Positions 14,383-64,000 of a DNA stretch of 64,000 bases are shown here, piece by piece. The notes beneath the pieces were generated by a model. It saw only the letters and a program-made list of their open reading frames with translations. It had not been told where the DNA came from and ran no database searches. The position numbers and the translations under genes were made by a program. Within the stretch, counting starts at the first letter, position 1, and each line of letters starts with the position of its first letter. Source of the DNA: Phoronis australis (lineage: Eukaryota; Animalia; Phoronida); contig NMRA01000470.1 of assembly GCA_002633005.1 (NCBI GenBank), positions 124,001 through 188,000 of the forward strand. Direction: 5' to 3'.

Positions 14383-15641
14383 TCATTTCTCGTCTGTCAT
14401 TGAAGCTGCTTCGTCTTCTTCTCCGCAACTAAATAAGTCTTCTTCTGTTTCACTGTCTCTCGAAGTTACTGACCACTCCATTGACTTTATTTCCGCCGGG
14501 TCCTCATAACGGTTAGAAGATCGTGTTGGCATAATTTGGTTTTTCGAAATACTGACAGCCATCCGCTTTCGGATAGGCAGAAGTTCTCTTTGCATCTTTA
14601 CGTCTGCTGGTTCGACAACTTCATTGGTGATTTCGAGTTTGTGTGTTGCCGTAGCATGACACCATTTATAAAACATGTTAGCAGTTTTGCTCACTTTTTT
14701 AACTTCTTCGCTGTTGTACTGTGTTAAAATTTCAAGTGCTCGTGCAGCGATAGATGGATTAAGGTCGTCAATTTTAAAGTTCCCTAGTGATTTGGACAGA
14801 CCCATGTTGCTTTGGCAGAACTGTTTACAGGCTGTCCACTTTTTAGTGTATTGCTCTCGCTCCCCGAGAAGTAGTAAAGTTGCTATCATCGTGTCGTGTA
14901 CCGCTTTCGGCGGATATTGATAAGCCTTGAATTCGGCAATTCGCTTTCGGCTCATCTTCACAAGAGATTCTGTGTAAAGCTGTAGTGTTTTCATCGACTC
15001 CAGTCGGCTGCGAGCTGAATCAAAAAAATCCAAAATCTGAAAAAGCCCCCGCGACTCTGCAAGCTGTAAAATCCCCTCCATTTCTTCTAAGTTCCGAGTG
15101 CGTTCTGCCGTTTCTAAAAGAGGTTTAATTGATAGAGCTAAGACAAGTTTTACAGACAGAGCGATTAAACGTTTATCACCATCGGTCACTCCTTTCTTTC
15201 CCATTCGAGCAGTGCTTTCAAATTCTTTAAGTGTGTTTTGAATTCGTACTCTGTCCATTGATTTGTGAGACTTTAAGAGAGCAACCCTGTTGAGCTCATG
15301 TTTCACAAGAACTAATGACGCCAAAGATGCTGTCTGTTTCTTCAATATTTCTCTTTCAAGAGTTGCGGAAAGTCTCTTGTCTCTCGTGGCTTCGCCAAGT
15401 GTTTCGTCCTCTTCCGTGTACATATGGCCTGGTTCTTCTTGGTCGACATTGCTTGTAGTCGTGCCAGTAAACTGCTTTAGCTTGGTTGAATTCACGAACT
15501 CTTGTATTTTTCTTTGATAGTCAAGTCGATGGTACCAAGCAAAGACTGTCACAAAAGTCAGGAAAAAAACGCTTACCACAATCACGACGACTTTTCGCAG
15601 TTCTTCCTTGTCCACTGGGTTTTGCCATAGATATGTGGATA
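14383..15641 (-). CDS. Terminal exon of a large Ig-superfamily protein: TM helix, helical linker and dynein MTBD-like domain
   Basis: The ORF-track start is a GTG, and the frame stays open up to the acceptor TTTATTACAG| at 15642, which is phase 1 like the upstream Ig exons. TM segment VVVIVVSVFFLTFVTVFAWY (~15591-15532) is followed by basic residues. 14964-14650 reads IAEFKAYQYPPKAVHDTMIATLLLLGE..W..LGNF..YNSEEVKKVSK..FYKW, the dynein stalk-head pattern. Confidence 0.8.
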
Positions 15642-16188
15642 CTGTAATAAATCATACGTGGTGTGATAATTTTACAAAACGATAAACGCAGGTGTGAACT
15701 GAGGTGAGCAAAGTTACTCGCGCTATTTTGTTCGCACGTTTACTTGCTTCCAAGTTTGTGAAATTCCACATTCATGCAATAGAGTTGGGGTGACTAGACT
15801 GGGCACTACGCTATAAGTATATTCCTGAGCAAGGCGGCGGGTCCCTTTTGTCGAAATGGCCGACAATGACTCTTTGGATTGACTGGCAAGCAGACGTCTT
15901 TGTCTATAATCGAAGGAAGAGGAATTGATCACTACTGGCGTAAAATTGAGTTGTTGATGACAGGGGAGGGGGGGGTCAATTTGGTGGCAATCTAGGACAC
16001 TTTGAATTGAGCAGGTGGGGCAAACGCGAGATTTAACTGAGTTTCAACCGGGGTAGGACATTTTTGCGATGAGCACGCTGACCATGATCCCGTTGCTCCT
16101 CCATTTTACAGCTCAAACTGATATGATTCGATTCTCTGTTAAATTAACAATTTCATAATTTCCTTCAAACTAAAATATGTCATGAATG

Positions 16189-17029
16189 CATAGGCGGATT
16201 TTAGGGGGGGGCAGAGGGCCACCCCCCCCCTCTTGGCTGCCGCAAAAAAATAAAACAGCAAGAGCGTAGGGAAATGTTGAGTTTATTAATTTGCCCAAGT
16301 AATTAAAATTGTACGGATGAAAAAAGATTTAAATTTGTGCAGTTTTAGTGTTTGGGGGAGCTCAGATCTAATTTCAAGTGTGTGTCAAATTCGGAACACG
16401 GCGCATTCGTAACGGAACTATGGCTAAGTGTAGGCTCTCCCGCGATATCCCAGGCGACCGGTAGTGGCGCTGCGCACTACGACTCCGTTTCCGTCGTCTG
16501 CTACACTGTGCAATGAAGAAAATTTACTTCATTTTTTAAAGAAAATGGAACCTGAGTGACGATGAAAAAAACAGAAGCTGCTGGTAAGATGTGAATTTTA
16601 ATCTAAGCCTTAGTGAATCACTCAGAAACTCATTAATTCTCTCTTTGTCAAACCTTAACTTAAGACGATATCCAAAGCAATCCCGTCATTATTGCCAACA
16701 CGAAAAACGGATTTGGTCTTTTGGGCATTTGATGACAACTTTAAATACAAAAAATTTGTTAAGAACCGATTGCACAAAATGTAAAACGTGTAATAAGCAT
16801 TACAAAAAGAAGTAAGTTTAGCGCGCAAACGCTGTGGACCATAAACAAGTAGGTCTCTTAATTTTAGGTTAGTTGTGATGTCGTGGTGGTGTAGTGGGAA
16901 AGCACGTGCGTCCTTCCCGACCTCCTCCCATTCGGTGCTAAGCGCATCTACAATCGTGGTTTGCGCAAATTCTTACGGCCGGACAAAATGTTGCCCCCCC
17001 CCCTTTGTGATATCCTAGATCCGCCACTG
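16189..17029. mobile_element. hAT-like MITE with 6-bp TSD (TGAATG)
   Basis: Terminal inverted repeats (TIRs) CATAGGCGGAT...ATCCGCCACTG, with TGAATG at 16183-16188 and 17030-17035. A near-identical inverted copy lies at 48922-49571. Confidence 0.8.
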
Positions 17030-19005
17030 TGAATGTTTTCCATAGTGCTCGATCTAAAGAAATGCCTTTGCATCAGGTTTGCCAACATTCATACAGCTTC
17101 GTTCGGTTTGTCTAGCAGTTCACAAATAGAATTTTCAATTTTTAATCTTTCTTTTCTTAATTTTGATTTGCGAAAGCGTGTTGATTTTACCAAATGCTTA
17201 GTTAGTAAAAGTTTTGAAGATATGGAGTCGTCTGTAACAAATTGGTGACGTTACAGATTGCAGGTTTATCTCGTACTCATTATCCCACATATCATATTAT
17301 GTGAAAATATAGGGAAATAGAGTCAATCCGTATACAACCAGTAGAGGCCGTATTTCACTGTTGGTGTGTGGTCTCCTGATGGAATGAATTCGAGCTAACA
17401 ACGCCAAATTTGATTGGTTCGGTCGTTTGGCTTACTTAATACATTAATCCAAGGGGTCGTTCTCGAAAGAGCAGTTTTAGCGCTCTAAAAATACAAACTT
17501 TCTCCAAAGACAATTCCGACGCACTGTGATCAGGCGGCTATTTTTAGACCTCTCAAGTTTCAGGCCCGTAGCCCGGGGGTTCGACTCGCTGGTTCCCTGC
17601 GTGCCGCTAGGTAGCCAGTAGCCAGCACGCAGGTGTCACTTGATTTTCCTCGGGAATTTTTTTACACCGGCGTTTCTGATTGGCTAGTCGAATTCTCAAC
17701 AGGCAGCGCTTTACGCAAACAAACTGGCATGACTGATGGACTGAAGTGTAAATGTGGTCTGTTGTACAGACAAATCGGTGCTTAAAATTTGTGTTCAGGA
17801 AATGTGAATCCTAGAAATTATGATTGCGCCTTTTCGGATTGCATCTTTCTACTGTCGATGACTTTGTTTACGACACTGTCCTGTATTCAGACAGTATGAA
17901 TAACACACCGGTTAAATCGGCCAGATGTGTGTTTATTGTACATGTATGTGCTTCAAGCACGCGGCTATTAAACACTCATGCAGAAACGAAAAATTTGCTG
18001 CGACGCCACTTGCGTGACAAGGCTAAAAATCGTTCACAGTCTGCCATTTGTTTACGGTGTTGTAAAGCTAACCAATGACTGCTGAGGTTACATCAATCAA
18101 TGCTAAAGCGCGTGCCACTGCGTGATACCTGTGTGCTGGTTAAGCACGCTAGGGAACGTGCACTTAAACATCCAAACATATACTTTGAAAAATCGAGAAA
18201 GTTTGTAAAAGGGAAGCTTTGTGGAGCGTATTACTTCACTGGAATTTTAAATTCAATAAAAAACTTTGCGAATGCCGAACTATATTTTTCCAGAGACCTT
18301 CTCTGGTAAGCGCTAACGGAGACAACTGTGGCTCTAGTTCTCTTTTTTGCGAAATTGTATATCACTTGAGAAAAAGTGATGACCTGACGGATAACATCAA
18401 TTGCTGGGCATTTCCTGATTTTTGAGAATATAGATCTTTTTATATTTAGAGGTCCCGCCCTTGAAGGAGGCCATTGGTGACATTTAAGTTGCCACCCTTT
18501 TCCTGTTTTATTGACAAATTCTTCAGGGCCACTCCTGTTTTTTTGTGAAATCGTGCAACCGCATTTCATGTTGAGGAAGGTCCCTTTTTGCAGGGTCACA
18601 CGACGATGGAATTAACTGTTACTCTTTCCAAGCTTAGCTATGTTTGTTTAGCTGTTCATCTTAAGGTTAATTACATCAGTATTTGACCATTACGATCAAA
18701 AAAGGGACAAATGCCGCACTAATAAAAAAGCTTGTTTATGTTGATTTGACGTTTTGTCTATTTATTAGACATCACCAGGTTAATAAGACATCAACGGCTG
18801 ATTTCACAAAGGTGGTTTAACAAAATCATGTTTAAGGCTTAACCTAGTCTAATTTTAGACCTAACTTGCATTTCACCAATTTGGTTTAACAGTCTGAAAG
18901 CCTGGTTCTGTTAGACCAGGCAGCAGGTTTAGTAAAACCCAGGTTTAAAGTATCCAAGCCACCCTACTGTGTCAATCCAGATTAACCCAACAAAGAAACT
19001 ATTGA

Positions 19006-21691
19006 CACCCCGGCCAACCCGCGATCGAGAACGCCCGGAAGGCGATCGAGAACGAGACCTTACACCAAAAATTGCAGACGAAAGTACCCGGTGAGTTTAA
19101 GTGTCATTTTCTTCTTAAATAGAGGCTACTTTGGTACCAATGCAACACACCGAAAAGCGTCAGAGCTTAGCCTTTGTTGTGAATCTGAAATAATACTTGG
19201 TTTTTGCTATTTTTTGAAACAGAGACCGCAAAATGCAATGACTTTCGGTAAAATGACTTGCGTCTCGTAAATTCGTCTATTTCTACTTGTTATTAGCAAT
19301 TCCTGGGTTCTTTAGTGGACACGTGTGACGTTTATAGTTAAATCGTCCCTGGTGACGCCTTTGTTAGTTATAATTTGTGAAGCAATTCGAGCTATCTACC
19401 GATACAAGCAGGTCCTTGTGTGAGACGGCGATCGGGAACGAAGCTGTTAATTCTCCATGGCGATCGTGAACGCAAAAATGCGATCGTGAAAGCACATTTT
19501 TTCTGTGTATTTTCCTGAATAATTGTTCAAGTTACGGTGTTATATCAAGAATTTTAGACTAATGTTATACTTTCACCGTTTTTTTATGATTTCTGTGTGA
19601 GATTTAGCCTCACAAATATGATTTAATGCGTTTGATTTTTCAGTTGAACTGTAGCCGCATGAGGAGTCCTTCAGAGTGTTAACATACACGCCTTCAAAAA
19701 AGAGTACCGGTAGCACAACTACTGCATGTGACAAAGGGCTGTGTATGCATATATGTTGTGGAGCTTCGTTCAGGAAGAAACCTTTTTTGTCCGAAATAGA
19801 TTGTCTATGATTCAGTGATGATTTAGTTTAATACACTCCAAAAATAATTCGCAGGAAATGTACACTGGATGTGTTATGTTGATTTCCCTAAAGCAATGTT
19901 TTATATCTTATTTCTGTATGACCAATTTTGAGGTATGTGTGATAAACGATTAATAGTATTATAGAATTGCTTTAATATTGTTGTTGATTTCCTGTGTAAT
20001 CACTACATTGTCTTGAAGTGATGTTAAAGACAACATTTTAACTACGTTTTTGAAAAATCACAATATAGTAGGTGTATTATATCTCGCCTCACTCTTTTTC
20101 AATGTCACGTTAAACTGGAGATCATGAACCGAAGATGCACTCAGGACCAATACTACAAAACAGAAGAGTCAAACATATGTTGTATATCCAAGCCACACAA
20201 GTGCCACAAGTCAATCTGTTCATCTCTGTATCGATAATATCAGTAAATATCCAACAAAATATTACCCGTTTTATCAGCAAAACAGTTAACGCCATTTATG
20301 GGATTTTTTTTAATCCCAGACGTTCATGAGCGGTAATCTTGGAATCACCTCACGAATGGTGTTGCCGCATTCTTCTCGCTCCGCACAGGCACGCTCATCA
20401 CCATTCGTTAATTTCACAGGCGTATTTGTTTTTTTTTCGTTTTGCTGTCACAATCTTGTAAGAAGATTCGGCACTCGCTTTCCAGGGGCGGATCCAGGAT
20501 TTCGAGTTGGGGGGCAGGGTACAGGAATAGTCAGAATTTTGCCACATGCGCGCCCAGCCTAAAATGTAGGGATGCAGGGGCCTCGAATTTTTGGGTTTGT
20601 GGACCTTATTACTAAGAAAAGTACACGGGGTTTGTTCAAGGCCTATGAATTGCGCATTAACCCCTCGAGCCCACTTCGGTGCGTGCAGATGCTAGTCGGC
20701 AATTCACACCCCGGACTGCCAAATGATATCTGGGAGAATTTTAGGGGGCATGGTCACCCCCCTCCTAAATTTGCCACTGCTTTCATCTGCATCAACAATT
20801 TGTTTACTCCTGGCTTACACGCTACAAGGAACAATTGCTGGATGAGTCTTAGTTTAGAACCCCTTGTTCCACTTGGTTTCGTCTAAAAGTATATGTCTGT
20901 ATTTCAAAACCCTGGTAGGGTGTACTTTCACGCCCTGATTAATCTGTTCGTTGAAGCTCGACTCACAATAATAACAATGAACGTGTTTCCTGAAATGAAA
21001 ATAAATTCATTTGTGAAAATATCTATAATTAAAATAGGGCTTGATGAACATGTAGTCGCTCATTTTAATTTAATGGTAATGCTATGATATTGTTTAGTTT
21101 GGAAACGAAAGTAACAGTAATGACTCAAAATGTGATTAATTCATTGCACCACACTTATTTTGTAACCTTTTCACGTTTTATATGTAAAAATTTCATAACT
21201 GTTCGGCACACCACGATGCGTTCTCGATCGCATAAACAAACAAAAATCTGCTTTTCCGATCGCTTATCTTTGCGTTCTCGATCGCATCTTTCAACAGAAA
21301 AGTGTCGAAAAATCAGAGATCCTGACAAATCTACGAAAAAAGCGTTGTGTTATATTTTCACAAGTCACTTCTTCATAACTTCATGGTCAATTTATTGATT
21401 TAGTGTCAAAAATAACCGCAATTTGCCAAAATGATATACGAATCACCTTTGACTCAAGCGATGCCTCGTTCAACGTAACTTATCTCCAATAACTGGAACA
21501 GACACCAGCCCAAACCTCTACCTGCCCTTCCTCAATGTGTTACGCCTTGAACTCATGTCTCTGTTTTCACATTGGAAGTAAAAGCAACGTAAATTTATCA
21601 AATTCAATCACCTTGCCTGGCTTCGCTGCTCGCAACAGGTTTCTTTCTCGATCGCTTTCCGGTCGTTCTCGATCGCGGGTTGGCCGCGGTG
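19006..21691. mobile_element. 2.7-kb non-autonomous TIR element with CAC...GTG ends and 6-bp TSD (TATTGA)
   Basis: CACCCCGGCCAACCCGCGATCGAGAACG at the left end pairs with CGTTCTCGATCGCGGGTTGGCCGCGGTG at the right. TATTGA at 19000-19005 and 21692-21697. Repeated subterminal CGATCG(A/T)GAA motifs occur on both arms. Confidence 0.85.
20483..20779. mobile_element. hAT-like MITE with 5-bp TSD (CTTTC), nested in the CAC element
   Basis: Ends CAGGGGCGGAT and ATTTGCCACTG, with CTTTC at 20478-20482 and 20780-20784. Confidence 0.7.
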
Positions 21692-23127
21692 TATTGAAGT
21701 GCTTCAATGAAACCTTGATCACGTGGGTACGTAATGGCACTCAGCTGTGCAGACATTTGCAGAAAAAGGTCTTAAAGCTTTTCTCAGGGGAAAAATGTTC
21801 CCTCTCTTGACTGATCAGAGAAAAAGCCAATGTTATAGAGAATAAGAAAACTGGTGCCAAATCAAGTCAACATAAGCAGCAGACTTGGAGAGATACTGGT
21901 TCTGACTGGCTGCACAGTTGCCACAATCGGAGAAATGCATGGACAAACAGTTAAAGGGTGTCACTAAAAAAATAAAGGCCAGAAAGAAAATTTCATCAGT
22001 GAAAAAATTGCAAAGATAAACGGTGAGGGACCCAGTGGCAGATCTAGGGGACATTTTTCATTTTGTTATGTCTGTGTCCAACACACACGAAAGTACTTGC
22101 TCACGATTAGCCGCAACATATCAAATTTTATTTCGTGTCATTTTACTGTTTATTGCAGTCAAAGGGGGGGGGTGAGCAGGACCCCTGCCCGACAACCTTA
22201 ATTCGGGGACCAGTTGAGGTGGAACTCGGTCAGAAGAATCAGAAGATGCCGTCTGCATTCAAACCCGTAGCGCTTACGGCGATGATGCTCTACTCGACCA
22301 GTCGTATTCTGAGGAATCCGGAGGATACCCTGCAACACGCACTGGTCTACGTAGAGGCGGACCCAGGGAGGGCAAGGAGTCTGGACCCCTTTTTTCCCTT
22401 GATTTTAGTGATATCAAATCCATAATTTTCAATTTGTTGACCCAGATTCCCCTCTTTTAAAAATCCTTGATCCGACCCCTCTTTAAGAAATCCTGGATCC
22501 GTCTCACGTTTGATCTTGTGTAATCGTAACACTGAATATTGAAAATAGTCCGCTCTCGTAAATGCACACCACGGCATGATTCAGTTGAACCTATATCTTG
22601 CAAGTCTGTCATACTTAACAGTATTGAACTTGAGCTTGACCAAGTCTACTGAAGTTAAACTTGGTTTAAGATGTTATACAGGTCTAAGGAATGTAGGCCT
22701 GTATTGGTGAAATGCAAACTGACTTAGACCAGGTCTAGGCTGGAGTTAAACCAGGTTTTACTAGACCACTTGTCTAAAAGTTAAACCAACTTTATGAAAT
22801 GCAGATTATCTTTAAACCTGGTCTAAGTCCAGTTTTAACCAGGTTTAACTTTAAACCACCTTTATTATTTTATGAAATTGGCTTCAAGTGTCAACATACC
22901 AGTCAGGTTACTTCCATGTAGTGAAATGAGTGTAGCAAGAAATACAGGGAATAGTAAATTGGTCATCAAACAGAAAATGGCTGTGTTTAACTGCGACCGT
23001 GAGTAACTTACGTAATTGAGCAGTTTCTTTTCCACCGATTCTTCAATCAACTGTTCTTCTGTTCCACGAGGAATGAAAACAAATTATCGGAACCGATTCC
23101 ATTTCGTTACAAGTTTTCAGTATTTCA

Positions 23128-24186
23128 GTACCAACAAACCGAATTTCAGAACAACTTTTGTTGCTGTGAAGATGTTGAGAGATGTTCCAAAATTTTAGGT
23201 AATGGTGCGCGTCACGAGAGCACTGTTTCGTAAACGACGAAACACTGTTTTTATATTATTTTAGAAATATCCATTAGTTTCCTATGTGTGTGGTGTAACC
23301 TATAGGTAGCAGATTTGTGTAGGTGTAAGGTCGAAACAAGCGATGAGTATATGCCTTCAATACACTGTACTTACGTTGCTGAAAGTAGTCGCAAGGTATC
23401 ATCTCACTACACGACTTAAAGTTTCTTTCTGGTCCTGGGCAGTACTTTCCTCCATTCGAGGACGGCCGCGGATTAGAGCAAGTACGATATCGTAGATGAG
23501 AGGCTAGTCCACACGAACTGCTACAGTGTCCCCATTCCTGCCATGGAGACCACCTGCCATGAACTGATAACGGGAGTGTTTGTTAGTGGAAACACAATAT
23601 CACATGTAAGTCACATCGCACTTCACACCCACAGCGTCACGTATGTGCAATATAAANGTACCAACAAACCGAATTTCAGAACAACTTTTGTTGCTGTGAA
23701 GATGTTGAGAGATGTTCCAAAATTTTAGGGAATGGTGCGCGTCACGAGCGCACTGTTTCGTAAACGACGAAACACTGTTTTTATATTATTTTAGAAATAT
23801 CCATTAGTTTCCTATGTGTGTGGTGTAACCTATAGGTAGCAGATTTGTGTAGGTGTAAGGTCGAAACAAGCGATGAGTATATGCCTTCAATACACTGTAC
23901 TTACGTTGCTGAAAGTAGTCGCAAGGTATCATCTCACTACACGACTTAAAGTTTCTTTCTGGTCCTGGGCAGTACTTTCCTCCATTCGAGGACGGCCGCG
24001 GATTAGAGCAAGTACGATATCGTAGATGAGAGGCTAGTCCACATGAACTGCTACAGTGTCCCCATTCCTGCCATGGAGACCACCTGCCATGAACTGATAA
24101 CGGGAGTGTTTGTTAGTGGAAACACAATATCACATGTAAGTCACATCGCACTTCACACCCACAGCGTCACGTATGTGCAATATAAA
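23128..24186. repeat. 529-bp tandem duplication separated by a single N (probable contig-overlap artefact)
   Basis: 23128-23656 and 23658-24186 are identical apart from the 3 substitutions I could see, and are joined by an N at 23657. Confidence 0.9.
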
Positions 24187-25273
24187 AGCATAGTAGACAT
24201 TTATAAACCCAGGAGTGATATTTTTACAACCACATCCTGATCTTCTCAAATAGTTTAGATTCTAATTGTACTTATGGTAAATAAATCTCCACGATTATCT
24301 TCGAAACCGAATTTCCAACATCGCCTAGCTTAGTTTTGTGACTTAGCAACAGGTAACAAAAGCGGGTGCTCATTTATGACGAAAGCCTACTTGAGTCAAG
24401 CTGTATTAAGAATTCTGTCTTGGACGAAATGGCGGGTTATTGACATTTTAGAAGCTGTCTATGACTTTCATTTCTCATTATGAGTATTTTGGGAACGATG
24501 ATATTTACAAGTGCGATCCCATTTTAAGATTCTTAAACTAAAATCTGCAAACCGGTCACGAAGTAGACTGCAAAGAGAAAAGGTTTTGTCTAAGAGTAGT
24601 CATACGTTGGGTCAAAACAATTACAAGTACAATTACCTTTACGCACATCGATGTCAACAATATATGTACGTCATTAAATGATAATTTTACGGATCTTGGA
24701 GTTCAATCATTAATTAACTCTCATTAAGGTATAATCATTAAATTTAAAATACTCGTGGTATTTGTCACGTTCGGAGTTCTTCATTTCCATGTTATAGTTG
24801 GCGGAATCTACTCATCAAAAGGTTTTCGCTCGCATTGTCTGATTCGTATTTTCTTCAGACAGTGCCTCATAATTCAGCTGTGTTAGCGACGTAACAGACA
24901 ACACCGGTGCAATTATTTAAAATTTCTAAACGGTTACTCAATGGGTTGTTTATGATACATTTTCACTTATAAGCTCATTTTTAATTATCTATATTAACCA
25001 CGCTCGCAAACAACTAATAGTGCACAAGTATCACTTTAAAAATCCACTCGGCTGTCGAACGTGCATCCATAATTTTTCTCATTATTTAATATCCAAAATA
25101 CAAAAAGGGACGATAATGGTAATTAAACAGTCAGCATTAGAACTTTCAAAAAACATTTAGATAGTTTCCCAAGGTTTCTGTGTCACTTCGTAGGATGCAG
25201 TACTCGGAACGTCAACTTCGTCATGTTCTCAATGTACATGTAAGAGGTGCGGCGTCCACATTTACTAGCGGCT

Positions 25274-25530
25274 CACACGCGCACCCAGGGGGCTCGGGGG
25301 GCTCGAACGAGCCCCCCCCCCTCCCATTTGGCGAAGTGGGCAAAAAGGTAAGCATCTGAGAAACAAAAAGTCCGAGAGAATGAGACAAAAGTCCACTAAA
25401 CAAGCACAAAAGCGCAATTCACAGTGGTGCCCCCTTTCTTTTTTTTTTAGTCCGCCCGCTTTATTGTTATCAAAAGGTCGACAACGTCAGGAATTCGAGC
25501 CCCCTATGTTAGAGGCTGGGTGCGCACGTG
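25274..25530. mobile_element. hAT-like MITE
   Basis: TIRs CACACGCGCACCCAG / CTGGGTGCGCACGTG, with an internal GGGGGCTCGAACGAGCCCCC palindrome. Flanks are CGGCT / CTGCT (5 bp, one mismatch). Confidence 0.6.
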
Positions 25531-26620
25531 CTGCTCCTGCCAAGTTAACCCATTGTGCTGTGAATTTTGCAATGGAGCAACCTGACTGTCTAACATTACA
25601 AGCGAAACAAAAATACACTGCACACTAAGTCGGTCTACAGAAGAGGCACGCGTGTTAACTGAGCGGGATGTTCATACATTTGATGGACACCGATATCCTT
25701 CAGTCTTATATATTTTAATAAAGTGATTAGAATTAATGGACCAGCACACTAGCCTAAAGTACGCCGAAAGTTGCACCCAGGGTCACAGCAAAAGTGTCGG
25801 CATACATTTGGTAAGTGCAATGCTTTTCATTGCGAAAATTGTTGTCAACATACATGCGTCACCAATTTCAAAAGGCACGTTTTGCATGTACGCGATATAG
25901 TAGGCAATTTCTCGGACAAAACATTCAATACGTGAGCGAAATTTTCTCCCAAATTAGTGCACAGAAATTATCCCATTATTCTTTTGGTGGAGAAGGCATG
26001 TGTGCGAATGTGGGGTGAAGTTTTCGCTAATAATTGACGTTTCGCCAAGTGTGTACCAACTTTTAGTCCTGCAGCTGAGCCTGCATTTCACCATGTTGAA
26101 CTGGCTAAAACACTGAAACTGGACTCGTAGTATTTCTTACCGGGAAAGCATTCTATTTTCGCTAGGGTCAAGAACATCGAAAATATGAGAAGGCGCTTCA
26201 CAATTTATTGGGTTTGCGAAATCTATAATTACGAATTAAAAAATGGCAAATGTACTTATTGCCTGTGAGAATCCAAGATCCGATGAACATGGTATTGTTT
26301 TGAAGACCAAATGCGCCAGAATACTCTTATGAAAGCTCAAGAGCAGCAAAATGCAACTTCAAACGTTACTTTTGCGATGTCTGGAAACCAAGAATAACTA
26401 ATGTTTTATTTAAAAATTTAACATCGTGCACTCAAATTGTTCTACAAAAAGGTGTTTTATTTGAAGCAAAAAAGCTATGGGATGAAAAGTAGACAATCTG
26501 GAGTGTGAAAGTATCAGTTTGTCTCGATTTTTGGCATGTTTTAATCACATTGATAGTGAAATTTGGTTTTGTCTTCAACTTCTCTCTTGTCACATTTCAA
26601 CCATATTAACTTAGTCTTAC

Positions 26621-26944
26621 CAACAACTTTGAGTTTGGCAGCTATCGCAGTCGACATGAAAGGGTGACGAGTGTTCCTTGCGGCGCAGACAAACACTTCA
26701 TCTTCGTGTTGGAGGACCCTAACGAATGACAAATGAAGTGCAATTGTCGTGACGCCATTAGCTTCGCTTGTGATCACATCAGAAGACGCATTGATCAGGT
26801 TGGACGAGAAGTTGGCAGTTGCCATGGGATTGACTGTTGCTACGCAGCGGATGACTGCGGTGGAGCCATTGTTAACGACCACTGTGTTACCTACGATTTC
26901 GGTTAGCGTGTCAGCTCCTTCCAGTTTCATGTCAAAGGGGCCAG
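26621..26944 (-). CDS. Ig-like domain exon 14 (membrane-proximal), phase 1-1
   Basis: Acceptor TTCGCAG|CT GGC CCC; donor GTT G|GTAAGA; 324 nt. Reads GPFDMKL..VIRCVATVNP..FVCAARN..KLKVV. Confidence 0.85.
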
Positions 26945-27104
26945 CTGCGAATAGTAACGTGCCTGAAAGTTCCTCTGTGTGCGATCTTTTACGCGGAATA
27001 AAATGTCTCGTGAGATATTACTTCATCTACGTCACTCTCGGTAGGTATACACAAAACGTACCGAGCACAGACATCACATAGAGTATTAAGATGTCTATGG
27101 TATC

Positions 27105-27210
27105 GAGCGTGGCGTACATGAAATAATATCCCACGAGACATTATTTCGCGCATCGACCTTGACCTTCGGAATAATGTCGAGTGGGATATTATTTCATGTA
27201 CGCCACTCAG
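27105..27210. mobile_element. Foldback (hairpin) core of a short non-autonomous element
   Basis: GTGGCGTACATGAAATAATATCCCACGAGACATTATT pairs with AATAATGTCGAGTGGGATATTATTTCATGTACGCCAC. A degenerate third arm lies at ~27010. Confidence 0.6.
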
Positions 27211-28699
27211 GTACGTTTTGTATTTATCCCATACGCATCGAATTTGTGAGTTTCTTTTGTTTTCTTTCGGCATTTTATAAATACTTCACCCTGTCTGTTT
27301 ACGTGGCTAATCACAACCTGTTGTATATGTACGTGCGCTTATGTTGCTAACTTGCTGTAGTAAAAGGAAGCAGTTTTAAATGTAACGGTTTATTAAATTG
27401 ATAAAAAGTGTGAAAACTACAGTTATTGTGCATTGAACTTGTATCATATTTCCAAAATAAATAAATAACAAGAAAATTTATAACACTGTAAAATCCTCAG
27501 CGGGTAGCTGCACTCATTCATGAAACTAGGTCATTGACCAGAGCGCGTAGCCTGAACGTCATCTGTTTTCACGAAGATATTAAAAGTGCTACCGTTGATG
27601 ACAGCTCCGGTGAGTATGCTTGTTGTAGAGTTGTTGCAGGTACGTTGTCGCATTTCTACGGATTCTGTAGCCTTGGTAAAAGGCTGTATACTAAATATAC
27701 GACAGTCTGTTGATACAGCTAGCTAGCTGGCTACTGATTCTGTAGCATGGATAGGTTCACGTGTTGCTGCTCGTGTAGTACTGTCGCCGATAGTATCGGG
27801 TGCTGTTATGGCCAGTGACAACAATGTTTGATATTGGCGAGGAATCGGACCTGAGTTGCAGACGATATATCATAGCAATTGAAAACTGAGACAGAACTGT
27901 CGTATAATTAACAGTACTGTTCCAGATGTTACAATTGAAACCTGGTTGCATGTTGATTGGTATACTTTTACACTGCTACAATTGTATTACTTTAAGTTAT
28001 TTTCCGAAAATTTGATGATCTAACCGGCTTACGACGTCGAGTCGACATTGACCTAGCTTTTGAACCTTCAATGTCAGAGGTCACTGTTGAAGTAGTGCGG
28101 GAGGTGAATACGGAAAACATTATTACATGGCCGCATTTCCCTCGACAGATTCAACGCGTATGGGATAAACTTGTTATTCCTTGACACACACCAAATCACG
28201 TTATGTCCAAAAATATTCTTGTACATTTGTAGTCACGTGTTTTTTTTTCTAAAAATTGTTTTTCAGATATTGTTGTAACTCCCACGATCGTGAGAGTTTG
28301 CTCAAAACTTCTTGTTTGTTCTTTCTATCAATAATTAATCGTTTCTGAGATGTTCTTTTTAGACCTGTTATCCCGGGATACTTAATACACAATGCCGAAT
28401 TAGGACAGTACAAACTTGAAAGTTACTTTGAAGTGTGCCAATCGTTCAATTTTCGAGTCGACTTTGAGTGGAAAATTGGACGCCGGGCACATGTTTCTGG
28501 CTCATTTCTGTTATTTGGATTCTTGTAAACATGTATGCTTATGAGTACTAACTTTGAAATTAGCGCTTATGTAAACAACGACATGTTGATCGACGTTTCC
28601 GTTTATTCACTATAAACCAATCTCAAGACAAAAGTTCAGGTGGCACAGGTTGAGAATAGATGATCCCTGGGGAAGGGCTTTTTGTCTAACAATCTAATA

Positions 28700-29939
28700 A
28701 CTAGAAAGATTATTGTCACGGCGTGACAATAACGGACTCTGCGCGTGCATATTACTGGAATTATGGGAAGTTACTGACAGCAACCCGTTTACCAATATGA
28801 AAAGGAATTCTTTAAAATTGTAGGAGAAATTACATATTAATTTTTTGATGACCTTCCCACTAATTGACCTCTTCCGGTGCATTATGAGCCCCAATGAGGA
28901 AGTAATTGTTAACTCCATTAAAAGTGTGGTTAATGCTAATAATCACAGATGTTTTACTTTAAGCACTTCAGAATACAAGATGAATGAAGTGGTCAAACTT
29001 TCAGAAGAAAAATGTACCTAATGACCCCATGGGTGCACCAAATGACCTGAAAATTTAGAATTCAAACTCAATCGCACTTAGTAAACAGATACGTAATTCT
29101 GAAGTCTCTAGCTCAAAATTTTAGTTTGTACTCAATGACCTTTGACCTATTTTTTCTGATTGGTTAGGCCTATTGCAAAGTAAAGTAGGGTATTCAATTG
29201 GCATGTTGACTTACACCAGTGTGCTGAAATTTAAAGAATTCCTTGAAAAACGTAAGAGATATAACATTTTGAAAGTTACATGACCTTTGCACTAATTGAC
29301 CTTATCCGGTGCATTTTAAGCATCTTGAGGAGAATTATTGCAAAGCCTATGGAAAATGTGTTTAACGCTGAGAATCACAGTTGTCTAACGGTTGACACAT
29401 CAGAATATTTGCTGATTGAAAAGGTCAAATTTTCAGAAGAAAAATGCACCTAATGACCCCATGTTTGCACTAAATGACCTGAAACTTTAGATTCCGATTT
29501 AATTTACCTGTGGCAATCAGACCTGTCAATTTGAAGTGTCTAGCTCAAAATTTTAGTTTGCACCTAATGACCTTTGACCTATTTCACCTGATTGGATGAC
29601 CCGATGACTTAGAAAAGTTATTTTTAAATTGTCATGTTGACTTATACCTGTGCACCGAATTTGAAAAAGATAGCTTTAGGAGGAGTAGCATTTTGAAAAT
29701 TATATGACCTTTGCACCAGATGACCTCTTCCGGTGCAATATGGAATATGATTATGTAACCAATCAAAATTTATATACCGTCAAATGTTATATTCTGAATT
29801 TAAAGACTGTACCTGCACCCAATTTGGAGTTATTAAGCCTCAAAGTTGGTCGGAAGAAGAATAAGAAGAATAAGAATAAGAATAAAATTGAAGAAAACCC
29901 AGGAACAACAGTACTCTGCGCTTACACGCGCAGAGTAAT
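28700..29939 (+). mobile_element. Helentron-associated (DINE-1/HINE-like) non-autonomous element
   Basis: 5' ACTAGA followed by the hairpin TTATTGTCACGGCGTGACAATAA. A ~430-bp TGACCT-rich internal tandem unit starts at ~28848, 29281 and 29706. An (AAGAAT)n microsatellite lies at ~29853-29884. The 3' hairpin TACTCTGCGC-TTACAC-GCGCAGAGTA matches the subterminal ACTCTGCGCG near the 5' end. Confidence 0.75.
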
Positions 29940-32367: not shown

Positions 32368-32724
32368 CTGTTACGTCCAGCGACATGGTTTCTGTTGCCA
32401 CCAACTCAGCATTTTTGTTATTTTTGGCCACGCAAACAAGATTGCCGCCGTGATAAAGAAATGTCACAAGCACGGACGCCGTAGCTTCGTTTTTATTTTC
32501 ATTTTTGATGGTGACCAGATCGAATGTCTTAAAGTCGGCAATATCTCCGCGACGCGACACGACATTTATGAATATATCTGAACCTTTGTTGGCCACTCCG
32601 GATGTACACGTGACGTTAAGTAGTGTGTCGTTGGTTATCACTATTGTTTCGCTGGCGTTTGGTTTGTACTCGTAACTTCCAGCGAGTGTCATGTCTACTG
32701 TCCACGGGCCGCGCGGAGCACCGT
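32368..32724 (-). CDS. Ig-like domain exon 13, phase 1-1
   Basis: Acceptor TTTACAG|AC; donor ACA G|GTATAT; 357 nt. Reads GAPRGPWTV..LNVTCTSG..LVCVAKN..SLDVT. Confidence 0.8.
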
Positions 32725-32907
32725 CTGTAAAGTATGAACTCAGTCAGAGTGACAACAGAAGTCGCAAAAATGAATGAGCTTTCGCATACAGTGCCTCAAG
32801 TCTGTCAAGTCATTTAGCCTACAAAAGAAATGTCCTTACTGTGCATGTCACCATCATGTTTTCAATTGTCAGTTTAATGGGTTTAGAAGATATTAAAATG
32901 TGTGCAC

Positions 32908-33240
32908 CTTTGACCTCGACACTTATTGACGTCCATGCTTTATTAGATTTGGCCAAGCTGTTTGTTGCGTTGCACCTTACGAAACTTAAGTCATAGTCTC
33001 GTTCCATTATTATGGTAAAAACACCTATTCGCGAGAGACCAATTTGGTCTTGACTCTTCTCATTGAATATTTCGACGTGTCCGTCTTTCTTGATCACTTC
33101 TAACGAGAACAAAACTGGCTGCAATACTTTATCTGTGATGCACCGGAAGGTAATCTTTTCGGCCAGAGTAGTTAAACATGCGTTCCCACGACCACGGCGT
33201 CCCCCAAGACAATAGAGAGCTGTTATTGCAGTCGGACCCA
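32908..33240 (-). CDS. Ig-like domain exon 12, phase 1-1
   Basis: Acceptor TTTCAG|TG GGT CCG; donor AAA G|GTGCAC (weak); 333 nt. Reads GPTAIT..ITFRCITD..VRCNATN..SVEVK. Confidence 0.8.
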
Positions 33241-33326
33241 CTGAAACGTGCAAGAAGAACTTACTGACTGCTAGTACGGCATGCATAGACGTAGCGTTGG
33301 GTTTCATGCAAGAGACTCCACATGAA

Positions 33327-34212: not shown

Positions 34213-34548
34213 CTATTACGTTCACTACAAAAGAAGCATTAACAGTTAAAAAATTGGTCTGTAAATTGGATGCCGAACAAGTGATCACAAGTCCATGCTC
34301 GGATTCACCAAGGAATACGTGACTACTTGTTCTGAATGTCCTGTTCTTCATTTCTTGTATCCTGCTTCTTGGCAACGGGTAAGACAGACCACGTGACGGT
34401 TTGTAAGCGTAGATGACCATACTGACACCGTTCTTTGCATAATCTGTCAAACACTCAATCTGCACCTCTCTATCATTATTAATGTGTATCACACTGTCGC
34501 GAATAGCGGGTCCGCCGTTCTGAGAAATAGTAACAGCTGTCGGTCCCA
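34213..34548 (-). CDS. Ig-like domain exon 11, phase 1-1
   Basis: Acceptor TTTTTCAG|TG GGA CCG; donor ATA G|GTAGGT; 336 nt. Reads GPTAVTI..IECLTD..ITCSASN..VVNVI. Confidence 0.85.
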
Positions 34549-35442: not shown

Positions 35443-35769
35443 CTAAGACGTCTAAAGATATCGTTAGAGTAGTATTGACTCTCGGCTGCTGGGAATTTCG
35501 TGCTGAGCAAGTTACATTAGCACCTGCGTGTTTAGAGGTTATTTTGAACTGGTGGCTAGCTTTATAAGTAGCCTCGCCCAGCGGCCGCACGAGAGGCTGT
35601 GGTTGCAAAGTTCCTTCCGTCATCGATAACTCGTAACCAAATTCCACGGCTGGCGAGGTTGGGTCTGTTATACAGTGCACAGTAAAGTAACTTGTTTCGG
35701 GAACGGCGCATACCAAATGTGTACAGTTGTAATATCCCGAGTATTCGTATCTGATTGACTTTGGCCCAT
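35443..35769 (-). CDS. Ig-like domain exon 10, phase 1-1
   Basis: Acceptor AATACAG|AT GGG CCA; donor TTA G|GTAATA; 327 nt. Reads GPKSI..VHCITDPTSP..VTCSARN..SLDVL. Confidence 0.85.
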
Positions 35770-37700: not shown

Positions 37701-38015
37701 ATGCAGCCCTGAGTTCAAACTCAGATTCCACAGGGACGATGGCAGGATCAGAATTTTTGGCTACGCACTTGACGAAGGTCTGGTCGTCATTTCTGTTGAC
37801 TACAAATTGAAGTGTAGAATTCACAGCAAACCCAGTCAGCTGTCCACTTTTCAATGCGTACACCGAAGAATCGAATGTCTTGTTAGTCAATGTCGGATGC
37901 GACCACGAAACGGAGGCATTTGGAAACATAATGTCTGACGCGCAAAGCAGCCTCACTTCGTCTCCCTCGGCAGGATAGTGTGCAGATGACGTCACAGTGA
38001 CCGTGTCAGGTCCGA
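37701..38015 (-). CDS. Ig-like domain exon 9 (C2/CD80-like), phase 1-1
   Basis: Acceptor ATTTCAG|TC GGA CCT; donor GCA T|GTATGT; 315 nt. Reads EGDEVRLLCASD.FPNASVSW..STLQF..DD..VKCVAKN. Confidence 0.9.
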
Positions 38016-38755: not shown

Positions 38756-38764
38756 CTAGAGTTC

Positions 38765-41202: not shown

Positions 41203-41547
41203 ATATAATCTCTATAGTAAACTCCTTGCTCTGTGTCAATGTCGGTTCTTTCTTGTTGACTGCCTTACATTGTATGACGTCCTTATGGAATCTTTTACTC
41301 GTCACGAAAGAGATGCGATTCTTGCAAGTGATTACGTTTTCCGCTTCCGAGCAGGAACTTCTAGATTTGTTGTACTTGCTGCTAAAATTCTGATTCGATA
41401 CGATTTTCCAAGTGACTTCTGCGCCAGGGTTAACTTTGGCAGTTGCGCACTCCATTGTCACGGGATGTCCCTCTAGAAATCGGAGTGTTTTCTCGCTTAT
41501 TGCTTGTTTCAGTGAAATATCTTGGACAGTTACAAAATCTGGTCCAT
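41203..41547 (-). CDS. Ig-like domain exon 8, phase 1-1
   Basis: Acceptor CATTTAG|AT GGA CCA; donor ATA T|GTAAGT; 345 nt. Reads EGHPVTMECATAKVNPGAEVTW..IQCKAVN. Confidence 0.9.
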
Positions 41548-43284: not shown

Positions 43285-43605
43285 ATGCTGTAGAGATGTG
43301 TATTCGGCTGTTAACGTATGCTTTCACGTTGCCACCATCGTCCAGAGCCTCACATCGTATCAGTTTACCGTCATGAAATTCGATGGGGCGGAATTGAAAA
43401 TTGATCGAGTAAATCCGCGTATTTCGTTTAACTTCCACGCTCTTCACTGCTGACCGTTGCCCAATTATGCTCGTTATCCATCTCAATCGGACAGAGGGAA
43501 ATACTTCATCTGTTGCACACGTCAATGTTTGGGGAATGTAGAGTGGTATTTGAAGCTTGTCGTCTTCAACTGCCGCGCCTTTAATGACCAGCGTCGTTGG
43601 ACCAT
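43285..43605 (-). CDS. Ig-like domain exon 7, phase 1-1
   Basis: Acceptor ACTACAG|AT GGT CCA; donor GCA T|GTAAGT; 321 nt. Reads LTCATDEVFPSVRLRW..HDGKLIRCEA. Confidence 0.9.
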
Positions 43606-45518: not shown

Positions 45519-45806
45519 GTGCAACTCTCAATGTCGTGTTGATGACGTATTCAGGACAGCAGCTTTGACAGCTTAAGACGGTCTCATGGTCTGCAGGTGT
45601 AGCCAAGAACGTCAATGAGTCCTTGAATTCGCCAGAAACAACCGATGCCTCCTTCAGAGAGTGGAGAAATTTCTTCTTGGTAACCTCTCCAAACCACTCA
45701 CAGAAAATGTTGTATTTTGTGGACGAATTCGTCAGGTAAACGTCGCCAATGATTCCCGATTGGTCTTTCATCAATACACGAGCTTTTAGATGAAAGATTA
45801 AATGCA
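45519..45806 (-). CDS. Divergent Ig-like domain exon 6, phase 1-1
   Basis: Acceptor TTAGTCCAG|TG; donor GCA C|GTAAGG; 288 nt. Reads YNIFCEW..SLTFLATPADHETVLSCQS..TLRVA. It lacks the GP start seen in the other exons. Confidence 0.7.
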
Positions 45807-49899: not shown

Positions 49900-50229
49900 C
49901 TTCCACTACAATATTGACAGTTTGATGGGCATGCAAAGTGGCCGAGTCCTTATTAAGAGCACGACAAGTGACTTCAATGGGTGACTCTCTGGCGTCCGCG
50001 ACAATTGTGAGAGAAGATTTGAAAATATATTTCGGCTGATTCCTTGGAACTTCTTCGACAGTAGTCAGCCCTTCGGTCTTAATCTTGACATCACAATACC
50101 ACATGAAGAATGCATACTGATAGACGTGGTCCGTTTGGCACGTTATTGTCAATGACTGCCTATCTTTGACATGTACTTCGTTGTCTCCTTTCCGTGCTGG
50201 TGTAAACATCTTCACCTTTTTCGGGCCGG
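49900..50229 (-). CDS. Ig-like domain exon 5, phase 1-1
   Basis: Acceptor TTTCTCAG|CC GGC CCG; donor GAA G|GTAAGT; 330 nt. Reads LTITCQTD..FMW..SSLTI..VTCRALN..NIVVE. Confidence 0.9.
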
Positions 50230-55124: not shown

Positions 55125-55445
55125 TTAGCGTTTTCAGTGTGGTTAATTTGTGAGCATTGAGTGTTGGGGTACGAGTATTTACGGCAGAGCATGCGGCACT
55201 GTCACCATCTATGGTGTCTTGTCCGTGTGTTGTCTCCATCGTGCTAACGTAAAAGCGCTCTTTAGCGTTCGAAGTCAATTCTCTTGATTCATGTGATAAC
55301 AAAGACCACTTGATATTGGCCTTGGGCCACACTGCATCTGTGACACAGCTGATCGTGTAGTGAACGTTGTTGAGCAAAAGTAATTTGCCGTCGCGACTTG
55401 TTCTATTGCCGGGAAATGCTCGTATCTCCAATGCAGTCGGACCAT
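55125..55445 (-). CDS. Ig-like domain exon 4, phase 1-1
   Basis: Acceptor AAACAG|AT GGT CCG; donor CTA A|GTACGT; 321 nt. Reads ISCVTDAVWPKANIKW..DGDSAACSAVN. Confidence 0.9.
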
Positions 55446-56446: not shown

Positions 56447-56749
56447 ATGTTATGTCGAGTTTGAAAGACTTTCTGAGTACTGGCGACTGCAAATGTGGGA
56501 TCCGAGAGGCAGAACACGTAACATCCTCTTGGTTTATTGCCGGAGACGAGATAATTTGCGTTTCTTTCTGGTATTTCATCATCTGTTGAAGTGTATCGGA
56601 TTCTTCACCAAGTGACCAGTGCATTTCTGCACCAGGGTTTACGTCATCAGTGCTACATATAAATATTTCTATGGAATCTTTGTCGGAGACAAATGTTAGT
56701 CCAACCTCGTTGCCATTTATCGTTGTAATGCTTAAAACTGTCGGTCCAT
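56447..56749 (-). CDS. Ig-like domain exon 3, phase 1-1
   Basis: Acceptor CTTCAG|AT GGA CCG; donor ACA T|GTAAGT; 303 nt. Reads FICSTDDVNPGAEMHW..VTCSAS..KLDIT. Confidence 0.9.
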
Positions 56750-57179: not shown

Positions 57180-57286
57180 NNNNNNNNNNNNNNNNNNNNN
57201 NNNNNNNNNNNNNNNNNNNNNNNNNNNNNNNNNNNNNNNNNNNNNNNNNNNNNNNNNNNNNNNNNNNNNNNNNNNNNNNNNNNNNN
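57180..57286. other. Assembly gap (N run)
   Basis: Run of Ns. Confidence 0.99.
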
Positions 57287-57289
57287 CTC

Positions 57290-57337
<48 letters not shown>

Positions 57338-57465: not shown

Positions 57466-57510
57466 AACCGCGGCCAATGATAATGAAGACAATAAAGCAC
57501 ATTAACTTAC

Positions 57511-57843
57511 AGTGAACTCTAACTGTATAGATCTTGAATTCTACAGCCTGGATCTTTGTGTTAGAAGCATAACATTTCAACGAGATTTTGTCTAATTCTT
57601 TGTTGGCTCGTATTGTGATGTTCCCACGGTACGCTAACCCGCCATACAAACTATTTGAAAATGACACCTCGGACTTGGTTCCTTTAAGAGACTGCCATCT
57701 CATGCTGATCTCTGGGTACGAACTGTCCGTCGAGCATTCTAGTGTGTAAACGGACCCGAGCATCACGTGGAACCTTTTGCTGTTGTGATCTAAAAGCCCT
57801 GGGACTTCACTCAGGTCTAGCACTGTCAGCTCAGTAGGGCCAA
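57511..57843 (-). CDS. Ig-like domain exon 2, phase 1-1
   Basis: Acceptor CTTGTAG|TT GGC CCT; donor CAC T|GTAAGT; 333 nt. Reads YTLECSTDSSYPEISMRW..LKCYASN..TVRVH. Confidence 0.9.
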
Positions 57844-58180
57844 CTACAAGTTACATTGTCAAAGTCAAGCACGTGAGTCAGAAAGTTTATTCCCGAGTTA
57901 ATCGAATCTGGAAACCAATACCAAAAGAGAAATAAATAAAAAACTTACCGCGTTATTTAGTCAAAATTTCATTGCAAATCCAATTGAAAACACTCACAAT
58001 TCACTAAAAGCAGCACGCTGTTTTGGAATCATGGAGTGTCGATACGAACCCGTTGATTGGCGCTTCAAGTAAGAGTTTGCTTGTTCATTTCACGCGTGCC
58101 GTGGATTGTTGGTTTCGCGACAGCACTCCAACAGTACCGGAATATCTTATCGAAATTTGATATTATCAACTATTACTCAC

Positions 58181-58513
58181 ATGCTACTTCAATAGTGGCT
58201 CTGACACGTTTCTTGAACTTGTGTTGTTGTACATTATGTGCTTCACAAAGAACCTGCTTCTTGTTTAAATGACGTGTGTATGTGAATGTAAAATTCTGCC
58301 TGAATGTTGATGCATTCGAAGCACTATGTTGACTAGAGCGATAAAGTTTGCCTTTTATTCCCCAATCGGCCGTCCACGTCATTTTAACACTTGGCCAAAC
58401 CAAATCTGTCTCGCAGTATAACTTGCACGTTTTGTTTTCAACACCATTCAGAATACCGTTGTTGATCGATAGCTTTTTCCACTCTTCGCTAAGTGTCAGT
58501 TCATCTGGCCCGT
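58181..58513 (-). CDS. Ig-like domain exon 1 (most 5' exon found; no start or signal-peptide exon identified)
   Basis: Acceptor TTTGTAG|AC GGG CCA; donor GCA T|GTGAGT; 333 nt. Reads KLYCETDLVWPSVKMTW..FTF..VLCEAHN..IEVA. Confidence 0.9.
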
Positions 58514-63995: not shown

Positions 63996-64000
63996 GGGTT

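What the first reader, a model, noticed from the sequence alone, without database searches (positions are those of the whole stretch)
14383..58513. Giant Ig-superfamily surface protein with a cytoplasmic dynein microtubule-binding-domain-like module
Seen in sequence: 14 minus-strand exons of 288-357 nt, each one Ig-like domain, all phase 1-1 with GT-AG sites. They splice in frame, with no stop at any junction, to the phase-1 acceptor at 15642 of the 410-aa ORF, which has no in-frame ATG before its TM helix. The predicted protein is >=~1,940 aa: >=14 Ig domains, TM, helical linker, MTBD-like domain, acidic tail. Established knowledge: Ig adhesion receptors (nephrin, sidestep, L1, Dscam) usually reach the cytoskeleton through adaptors or carry kinase/phosphatase domains, and the MTBD normally sits at the tip of the dynein stalk. 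Inference: this may be a receptor that tethers an extracellular adhesion/recognition rod directly to microtubules, for example a ciliary membrane-axoneme or cilium-cilium linker. I do not know this architecture from any characterised protein. The automatic ORF track hides it because the exons appear as unrelated short ORFs.
Basis: partly seen in the sequence, partly recalled or inferred. Interest (0 to 1): 0.9.

Follow-up and report, generated by a model that had tools for sequence, protein, structure and literature searches.

The report
Adhesion receptor ending in dynein's foot
A transcribed animal locus carries exons for 14 immunoglobulin-like domains, a thrombospondin repeat and a membrane-spanning tail that ends in a motor-less copy of dynein's microtubule-gripping domain; they likely form one surface protein that is predicted to tie cell adhesion directly to microtubules, a design I found in no characterised receptor.

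Summary
The 14 phase-1 GT-AG exons exist; 13 are clear nephrin/SYG-2-like Ig domains and one is marginal. The terminal exon encodes a TM helix, a helical spacer and a true dynein MTBD homologue (AF2 pLDDT 96; Z 17.2 to the dynein stalk tip) with no motor. It keeps the H1 glutamate and an H6 basic residue used for tubulin contact. All five exon sets examined are transcribed on the minus strand at similar depth in 2 of 3 raw-read RNA runs; junction reads were not seen. The tail is not unique. It belongs to an apparently undescribed module (282 relatives) that sits at the C-terminus of KY-like transglutaminase, CLCA, CD20-like, mucin, EF-hand and VWA proteins from ctenophore to tunicate, often with a membrane anchor. 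None of the 150 relatives scanned has Ig ectodomains. Best reading: one receptor of at least 2,000 aa that tethers an adhesion rod to microtubules without ATP (about 0.55). Microtubule binding is untested.

The parts
58181..58513 (-). Ig exon 1 in the window (C2-set-like); signal peptide and 5' end not found, probably beyond the window
   Evidence: 53.6 bits leave-one-out; no signal-peptide exon candidate at 58560-64000 under my criteria
57511..57843 (-). Ig exon 2
56447..56749 (-). Ig exon 3
55125..55445 (-). Ig exon 4 (donor less certain: several in-phase GT options)
49900..50229 (-). Ig exon 5
45519..45806 (-). Ig exon 6, degenerate or atypical (both Cys kept, no GP start)
   Evidence: leave-one-out 7.5 bits vs 5.4 for shuffles
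43285..43605 (-). Ig exon 7
   Evidence: Pfam C2-set_2 E=5e-05, above cut-off
41203..41547 (-). Ig exon 8
37701..38015 (-). Ig exon 9
   Evidence: Pfam C2-set_2 E=8.2e-05, above cut-off
35443..35769 (-). Ig exon 10
34213..34548 (-). Ig exon 11
32908..33240 (-). Ig exon 12, transcribed
32368..32724 (-). Ig exon 13, transcribed
26621..26944 (-). Ig exon 14, transcribed
23905..24093 (-).
   Evidence: Pfam TSP_1 E=2.8e-11 on the copy with identical translation; splice sites; stranded RNA depth
23375..23563 (-). second TSP1 copy in a 529-bp tandem duplicate joined at a single N; probably an assembly artefact
   Evidence: 3 mismatches in 529; RNA depth fits one copy better (11.1 and 7.2x) than two (5.9 and 3.8x)
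14383..15641 (-). terminal coding exon (phase-1 acceptor to TGA): TM, acidic linker, helical spacer, stalk tip with MTBD, acidic tail
15535..15591 (-). predicted transmembrane helix, followed by basic residues
   Evidence: hydropathy peak 2.73 over 19 residues
15052..15330 (-). predicted helical hairpin/bundle spacer, shared with the module family
   Evidence: AF2 helices 3-93; matches only generic bundles, Z about 8
14623..15027 (-). short CC1, MTBD helices H1-H6, short CC2: dynein stalk-tip homologue, net basic (pI 9.4)

Best explanation
These co-transcribed exons likely splice into one single-pass surface protein of at least 2,000 aa whose Ig/TSP1 rod would bind a partner outside the cell while its dynein-derived MTBD is predicted to grip a microtubule under the membrane, as a motor-less tether. 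Shown: exon anatomy, Ig and TSP1 identity, a TM-type hydrophobic helix, homology of the tail to the dynein stalk tip by sequence and predicted fold, absence of an AAA motor, and stranded transcription of the last five exon sets in the same samples. Inferred: the splice junctions; adhesion as the job of the rod (from likeness to SYG-2/nephrin C2-set domains); tubulin binding through H1/H3/H6 as in dynein; ATP independence with the short CC1/CC2 held in one register by the helical spacer; useful grip coming from clustering of receptors at a contact site.
For: Joined frame open, 2,004 aa with one TSP1. Stranded depth per exon 7-16x in X1 and X2 and 0-0.7x in X3 for terminal, TSP1 and three Ig exons; two unique intron bins at most 0.35x; the bin holding the acceptor has only the depth that the 214 exon bases explain, leaving no room for a contiguous own 5' UTR. 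No ATG before the TM. Ig profile matches SYG-2 best, E=4.2e-22. Tail: phmmer hits 10 dynein chains at E<=0.02; family profile E=4.9e-15 to yeast MTBD, 60 of 60 listed hits dynein chains; model pLDDT 95.8; Z 17.2, rmsd 2.5 A over 137 residues to 5ayh. Contact residues named in PMC12706001 (passages), mapped through: E3306 kept (E; 99% of 67 family rows), K3301 as R, R3384 as K. TM upstream of the same module in 8 of 76 relatives of at least 400 aa, including ctenophore and amphioxus proteins; a further 25 of 74 long relatives start with an MGxxxS-like, possibly myristoylated N-terminus. A Toxoplasma chain on the intraconoidal microtubule has a similar fold, Z 10.2, most likely ICMAP2, which links two microtubules.
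Against: No junction-spanning read was seen: the joints table was filled by repeat-derived reads, and exons upstream of 34000 were not examined for RNA. No relative among 150 scanned carries Ig or TSP1 ectodomains. The H6 basic position is K/R in only 13% of family rows and D/E in 36%, so the family as a whole does not keep that contact; K3336 of dynein-1 H3 is T here (dynein-2 also lacks it). Pfam MT scores only E=0.0085, below cut-off. An MTBD-like fold also occurs in a Chlamydomonas radial-spoke chain, Z 11.8, where I have no evidence of tubulin binding. A single-sequence fold was poor, pLDDT 48. Z values of 10-12 for helical domains may reflect common arrangements.
Confidence: 0.55

Rival explanations
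1. One receptor as described, but the MTBD-fold domain no longer binds tubulin and serves as a docking surface for another cytoplasmic protein.
For: H6 basic residue poorly kept across the family (13% K/R); MTBD-like fold in a radial-spoke chain; the query has a long branch, 1.29, and at most 36% identity to any relative; ICMAP2 binds with partner helices of unknown identity.
Against: This protein keeps E in H1, basic H1 and H6 residues and a net basic MTBD; the H1 glutamate, a tubulin contact in dynein, is 99% conserved in the family.
Confidence: 0.27
2. Two neighbouring genes: a secreted or differently anchored Ig/TSP1 protein, and a separate intronless-looking MTBD gene that starts at the ATG at 15423 or uses an unseen short first exon.
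For: No junction read seen; 7.7 kb of repeat-rich DNA lies between the TSP1 exon and 15641; no Ig+MTBD relative found; its MTBD is nearest, weakly, to KY-like soluble members.
Against: Same strand, same depth, same on/off pattern over three runs; matching phase-1 donor and acceptor; 72 open codons with a TM helix ahead of the first ATG; no other terminal exon found among the 89 other frames scanned.
Confidence: 0.1
3. An immune-type recognition receptor with a fast-evolving Ig array, in which the tail links captured particles or vesicles to microtubules rather than holding a cell junction.
For: The Ig exons are only 14-26% identical to the reference exon and have no detected relatives in one search; expression is restricted to 2 of 3 runs; relatives include CLCA, CD20-like and mucin membrane proteins.
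Against: The Ig domains match junctional adhesion proteins (SYG-2, Roughest, Neph1) best; no tandem paralogue in the window.
Confidence: 0.08

Closest known systems
Dynein heavy chain stalk tip / MTBD (Pfam PF12777; 5ayh, 6kjo, 8i3j, 6rzb)
   Same: Sequence motifs of H1-H6, predicted fold (Z 13-17), flanking CC1/CC2, H1 glutamate and H6 basic residue.
   Different: No AAA ring and no long stalk; it ends a membrane protein, behind a helical bundle spacer.
Nephrin/SYG-2/Kirrel Ig adhesion receptors
   Same: C2-set-like Ig array in phase-1 exons, single TM; SYG-2 is the best structural-sequence match.
   Different: At least 14 Ig plus TSP1, no FN3 found; folded MTBD tail in place of a disordered adaptor-binding tail (nephrin layout recalled).
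Uncharacterised invertebrate proteins ending in the same spacer+MTBD module (e.g. Branchiostoma CLCA-like XP_019614282.1 and XP_035689228.1, mucin-like XP_066263927.1, Pleurobrachia P0070, KY-like KAK3098481.1)
   Same: C-terminal helical spacer plus MTBD; several have ectodomain, TM and linker in the same order.
   Different: Other N-terminal parts; none of 150 scanned has Ig or TSP1 ectodomains; database names ignore the MTBD.
Non-dynein chains with an MTBD-like fold: 9ya2_L (likely Toxoplasma ICMAP2), 7jtk_C (Chlamydomonas radial spoke 1; RSP2 by my recall, unverified), 9fqr_Xl, 9e5c_2e
   Same: Stand-alone MTBD-like fold without a motor, in microtubule-based structures (Z 8.7-11.8).
   Different: Parts of intracellular microtubule complexes, 8-13% identity, not surface receptors; homology not shown by sequence.

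Membership tests
Dynein MTBD domain family | sequence homology to the MTBD | tested here: met
   phmmer E=7e-05 best; family profile E=4.9e-15; Pfam MT alone below cut-off
Dynein MTBD domain family | six-helix fold between CC1 and CC2 | tested here: met
   pLDDT 95.8; Z 17.2, rmsd 2.5 A, 137 aligned
Dynein MTBD domain family | H1 glutamate and H6 basic tubulin-contact residues | tested here: met
   E133 = E3306, K212 = R3384; H6 site kept in only 13% of family rows
Dynein MTBD domain family | H3 lysine K3336 of dynein-1 | tested here: not met
   T at that place; also absent from dynein-2
Dynein MTBD domain family | binds microtubules | not testable with these tools
Dynein heavy chain | AAA+ ring and long coiled-coil stalk | tested here: not met
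   ORF closes 77 residues after the MTBD and opens with a TM; no dynein family hit in the frames scanned
Nephrin/SYG-2 family | C2-set Ig ectodomain and one TM | tested here: met
   TM in the same chain is inferred
Nephrin/SYG-2 family | 8-9 Ig then one membrane-proximal FN3 (recalled) | tested here: not met
   14 Ig exons then TSP1; no FN3 among 89 further frames, 81 of them minus-strand frames of at least 58 aa upstream of the terminal exon
Nephrin/SYG-2 family | signal peptide and N-terminal V-set domain | tested here: inconclusive
   5' end not found in the window; no genome held
Hemicentin (recalled layout: VWA, Ig array, TSP1 x6, G2F, EGF; secreted) | G2F and EGF domains after the TSP1 repeats, no TM | tested here: not met
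   one or two TSP1, then a TM exon; no G2F or EGF hit
KY/hillarin-like transglutaminase proteins with the module | Transglut_core and Ig-like_KY domains | tested here: not met
   absent from the locus; Ig-like_KY present in 40 of 150 relatives
Ctenophore cilium-cilium linker CTENO189 | metalloprotease and two death domains | tested here: not met
   passage of 10.1101/2022.03.27.486007

The most novel reading that the evidence does not exclude
Early animals freed dynein's microtubule foot from its motor and grafted it onto many membrane anchors (Ig receptor, CLCA, CD20-like, mucin, lipid-anchored transglutaminase-like proteins), making an unrecognised class of direct membrane-to-microtubule tethers; this gene is its adhesion-receptor member, and pulling on the Ig rod could shift the CC1/CC2 register and so tune the grip on the microtubule without ATP.
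Probability: 0.35. Interest if true: 0.9.

Novelty: new variant of a known kind. Interest (0 to 1): 0.72.

Why it matters
Adhesion receptors are thought to reach microtubules through adaptors, and the dynein MTBD is treated as a part of the motor. A receptor with its own MTBD would be a direct transmembrane link between a contact site and the microtubule, a candidate for the unnamed membrane-microtubule links of cilia and cortical arrays. The wider module, found in at least 282 sequence clusters and missed by current names, gives natural motor-less MTBDs with which to test how stalk register sets affinity. One co-pelleting assay on the 240-aa tail tests the idea.

Tried and rejected
No whole genome was held, so the 5' end and paralogues could not be sought. 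No indexed RNA holder was listed; three raw-read runs came by species label. Splice joints were not visible and remain untested. Word-based searches for longer relatives found nothing for the terminal ORF, its alignment or the Ig alignment (weak evidence). No related locus in metagenome contigs. The Atlas gave unnamed, mostly mollusc clusters, one with MT in 14% of members, and no named hit once KY and dynein families were skipped. Single-sequence folding failed. Complex prediction with tubulin was not available; no verdict. Independent origin of TM-bearing members: quick trees scatter them (5 changes for 9 rows; 2 of 78 chosen rows dropped for lack of a full domain), but on 33 rows one clade of query plus 9 TM rows is not rejected, p-AU 0.095: inconclusive. 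My recall that CTENO189 has a transglutaminase domain was wrong. TTLL11's 'MTBD-like' motif is unrelated to dynein. A 47-nt candidate exon at 23058-23012 breaks phase with 15641, and an Ig-like start at 33712 runs into a stop and does not score with the Ig profile: both left out of the model. Three look-ups of earlier findings were empty. The radial-spoke structure papers were not held.
Full report
Observation. The window is eukaryotic-type DNA of 40% GC with repeats and transposon remains. On the minus strand, 14 exons of 288-357 nt between 58513 and 26621 are flanked by AG and GT, are multiples of three long and are phase 1 at both ends; joined to the acceptor before 15641 they give 1,941 aa with no internal stop. 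All 14 keep the two Ig cysteines and 13 begin with GP. Left out of the profile in turn, 13 of 14 score 15.5-61 bits against at most 10.5 for 200 shuffles each; the exon at 45806-45519 is marginal. Their profile matches SYG-2 best among solved structures, E=4.2e-22, then Roughest and other Ig adhesion proteins. No further Ig exon was found in six frames.

Correction to the model. Between the last Ig exon and the terminal exon lies a 189-nt phase 1-1 TSP1 exon (Pfam E=2.8e-11; sites). It appears twice, in a 529-bp tandem copy with 3 mismatches and one N at the join, which suggests an assembly duplicate. With one copy the model is 2,004 aa, with two 2,067 aa. Of 89 other frames scanned, only transposon domains were hit. 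The signal peptide was not found and no genome was held, so the length is a minimum.

Transcription. Four runs were laid on 14100-34000. In X1 and X2 the exon-bearing bins without repeats carry reads of one orientation only, as expected for minus-strand RNA in the usual stranded library; X3, from the same study, has next to none. Depth per exon base is 10.5-13.6x on the terminal exon, 7-11x on TSP1 (counted as one copy), and 10-16x on the three Ig exons, against 0-0.7x in X3. Two unique intron bins have at most 0.35x. The bin holding the acceptor has only the depth that its 214 exon bases explain. This fits one tissue- or state-restricted transcript. It does not show the joins: the joints table was filled by repeat-derived reads, with 105 rows not shown, and the 11 Ig exons above 34000 were not examined. 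X4 (contigs, RNA status a guess) showed nothing on the terminal exon.

The tail. The terminal exon encodes a hydrophobic helix (15591-15535), an acidic linker, a basic helical region, a basic MTBD-like region and an acidic tail; its first ATG is residue 73, after the helix. Pfam MT is weak, E=0.0085, but the ten best hits among solved structures are dyneins, axonemal ones first. A profile of the query and 67 short relatives hits yeast cytoplasmic and axonemal MTBDs at about 5e-15; all 60 listed of 65 hits are dynein chains (one row, 4,583 aa, carries a radial-spoke label that does not fit its length). Folded with that alignment the 237-aa piece has pLDDT 95.8 (48 without alignment). Foldseek lists dyneins in all but the last of its shown rows. 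VIA-align over 48,161 chains gives Z 17.2, rmsd 2.5 A, 137 aligned to the dynein stalk 5ayh, with the spacer matching only generic bundles near Z 8. PMC12706001 (passages) names E3306 in H1 and R3384 in H6 as salt-bridge residues, and K3301 and K3336 as dynein-1 features. Mapped through, this protein has E, K, R and T at those places. In the 67 family rows the glutamate is 99% kept, the H6 site only 13% K/R.

The module is a family. A full HMMER scan found 282 cluster representatives at E<=0.001. Of the 150 listed, 40 carry KY-like Ig domains, mostly with a transglutaminase core; others carry CLCA, CD20-like, VWA, LRR or TPR domains or repeated MT units; none has dynein AAA, classical Ig or TSP1 hits (thresholds 1e-3 and 1e-5). 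EF-hand-like N-termini in four are my reading by eye, without a Pfam hit. The module lies within 40 residues of the C-terminus in 55 of 72 long members. Eight of 76 members of at least 400 aa have a strong hydrophobic helix upstream, a ninth by eye, and 25 of 74 long ones begin MGxxxS-like. Of 20 looked up, named sources are ctenophore, sponge, molluscs, annelid, brachiopod, amphioxus, tunicate and, for repeated-MT forms, protists. So ectodomain-TM-spacer-MTBD exists within single records elsewhere, which supports the joined model, while the Ig/TSP1 version was seen only here. Trees place the query weakly among KY-like members and do not decide whether TM fusions arose once or often.

Mechanism. 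Best reading: a long C2-set rod binds a partner outside; the TM passes the load to a short stalk tip whose MTBD grips tubulin through H1, H3 and H6 as in dynein; with no motor the link is static and ATP-free, and clustering supplies strength. The joins, the adhesion role and the tubulin binding are inferred. I put one gene at about 0.85 and binding at about 0.65. A ciliary role is possible but unsupported here.

Known relatives and novelty. It works like a nephrin-type receptor outside and like a dynein foot inside, and is a member of neither family. MTBD-like folds outside dynein exist: 7jtk_C in radial spoke 1 (Z 11.8), 9ya2_L (Z 10.2), 9fqr_Xl (Z 10.4) and 9e5c_2e (Z 8.7). By residue range and size 9ya2_L is most likely ICMAP2, which PMC12819142 (passages) shows bound between protofilaments and needed to hold two microtubules together; the main text does not mention a dynein likeness, but its Extended Data Fig. 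3 of domain assignments is a figure I could not see. I recall that RSP2 was said to have an MTBD-like domain in the 2021 radial-spoke papers; I saw nothing of them. Ten full-text searches showed no paper describing this module on membrane or KY-like proteins; most results I saw as listings only, and subscription journals are largely missing. Other papers seen: PMC12366701 and 10.1101/2022.03.27.486007 (passages); PMC11779644 (passages and a supplement search, one file unreadable, chain Xl not identified); PMC12423330, PMC13443885 and PMC10266980 (term look-ups only).

Verdict. A real, transcribed locus with a genuine motor-less dynein MTBD behind a TM helix, likely the tail of a giant Ig/TSP1 receptor, and one member of a wider undescribed invertebrate module. 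New variant of a known kind; interest 0.72.

Noticed in passing
P0001-P0150: A stand-alone helical spacer + dynein-MTBD module ends many invertebrate KY-like transglutaminase proteins (40 of 150), many with MGxxxS-like N-termini, and CLCA, CD20-like, mucin, VWA and EF-hand-like proteins; database names do not mention it. Possibly the larger finding.
   Followed up: partly
PDB 9ya2_L, 7jtk_C, 9fqr_Xl, 9e5c_2e: Non-dynein chains of microtubule structures with an MTBD-like fold; 9ya2_L is likely Toxoplasma ICMAP2, whose paper's main text does not note the likeness.
   Followed up: partly
P0065, P0075, P0100, P0126, P0129, P0148: Proteins with 2-4 tandem MT units and no motor; the two with a named source are from protists.
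   Followed up: no
window 23128-24186: 529-bp tandem duplicate with a single N at 23657, doubling the TSP1 exon; probably an assembly artefact.
   Followed up: yes
window 33712-33537 (-): Good acceptor followed by a GP-start like the Ig exons, running into a stop; the bin shows strand-biased reads in X1 and X2 but holds repeats. Remnant, alternative end or chance.
   Followed up: partly
window 23058-23012 (-): 47-nt candidate exon with a GTAAGT donor; out of phase with the 15641 acceptor.
   Followed up: partly
window 9210-12067 (+): Convergent neighbour encoding a long coiled-coil protein, best Pfam hit FAM184 (E=0.002, below cut-off).
   Followed up: no
window 60128-62288 (-) and 62797-63072 (+): Broken LINE-type element (reverse transcriptase, RNase H) and a THAP domain fragment upstream of the first Ig exon.
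   Followed up: no
window 28700-29950: Intronic repeat with very high, strand-biased RNA depth (up to 374x in X3), probably from an element expressed elsewhere.
   Followed up: no
window 57180-57286: 107-N assembly gap inside the intron between Ig exons 2 and 3; hidden sequence there cannot be excluded.
   Followed up: no
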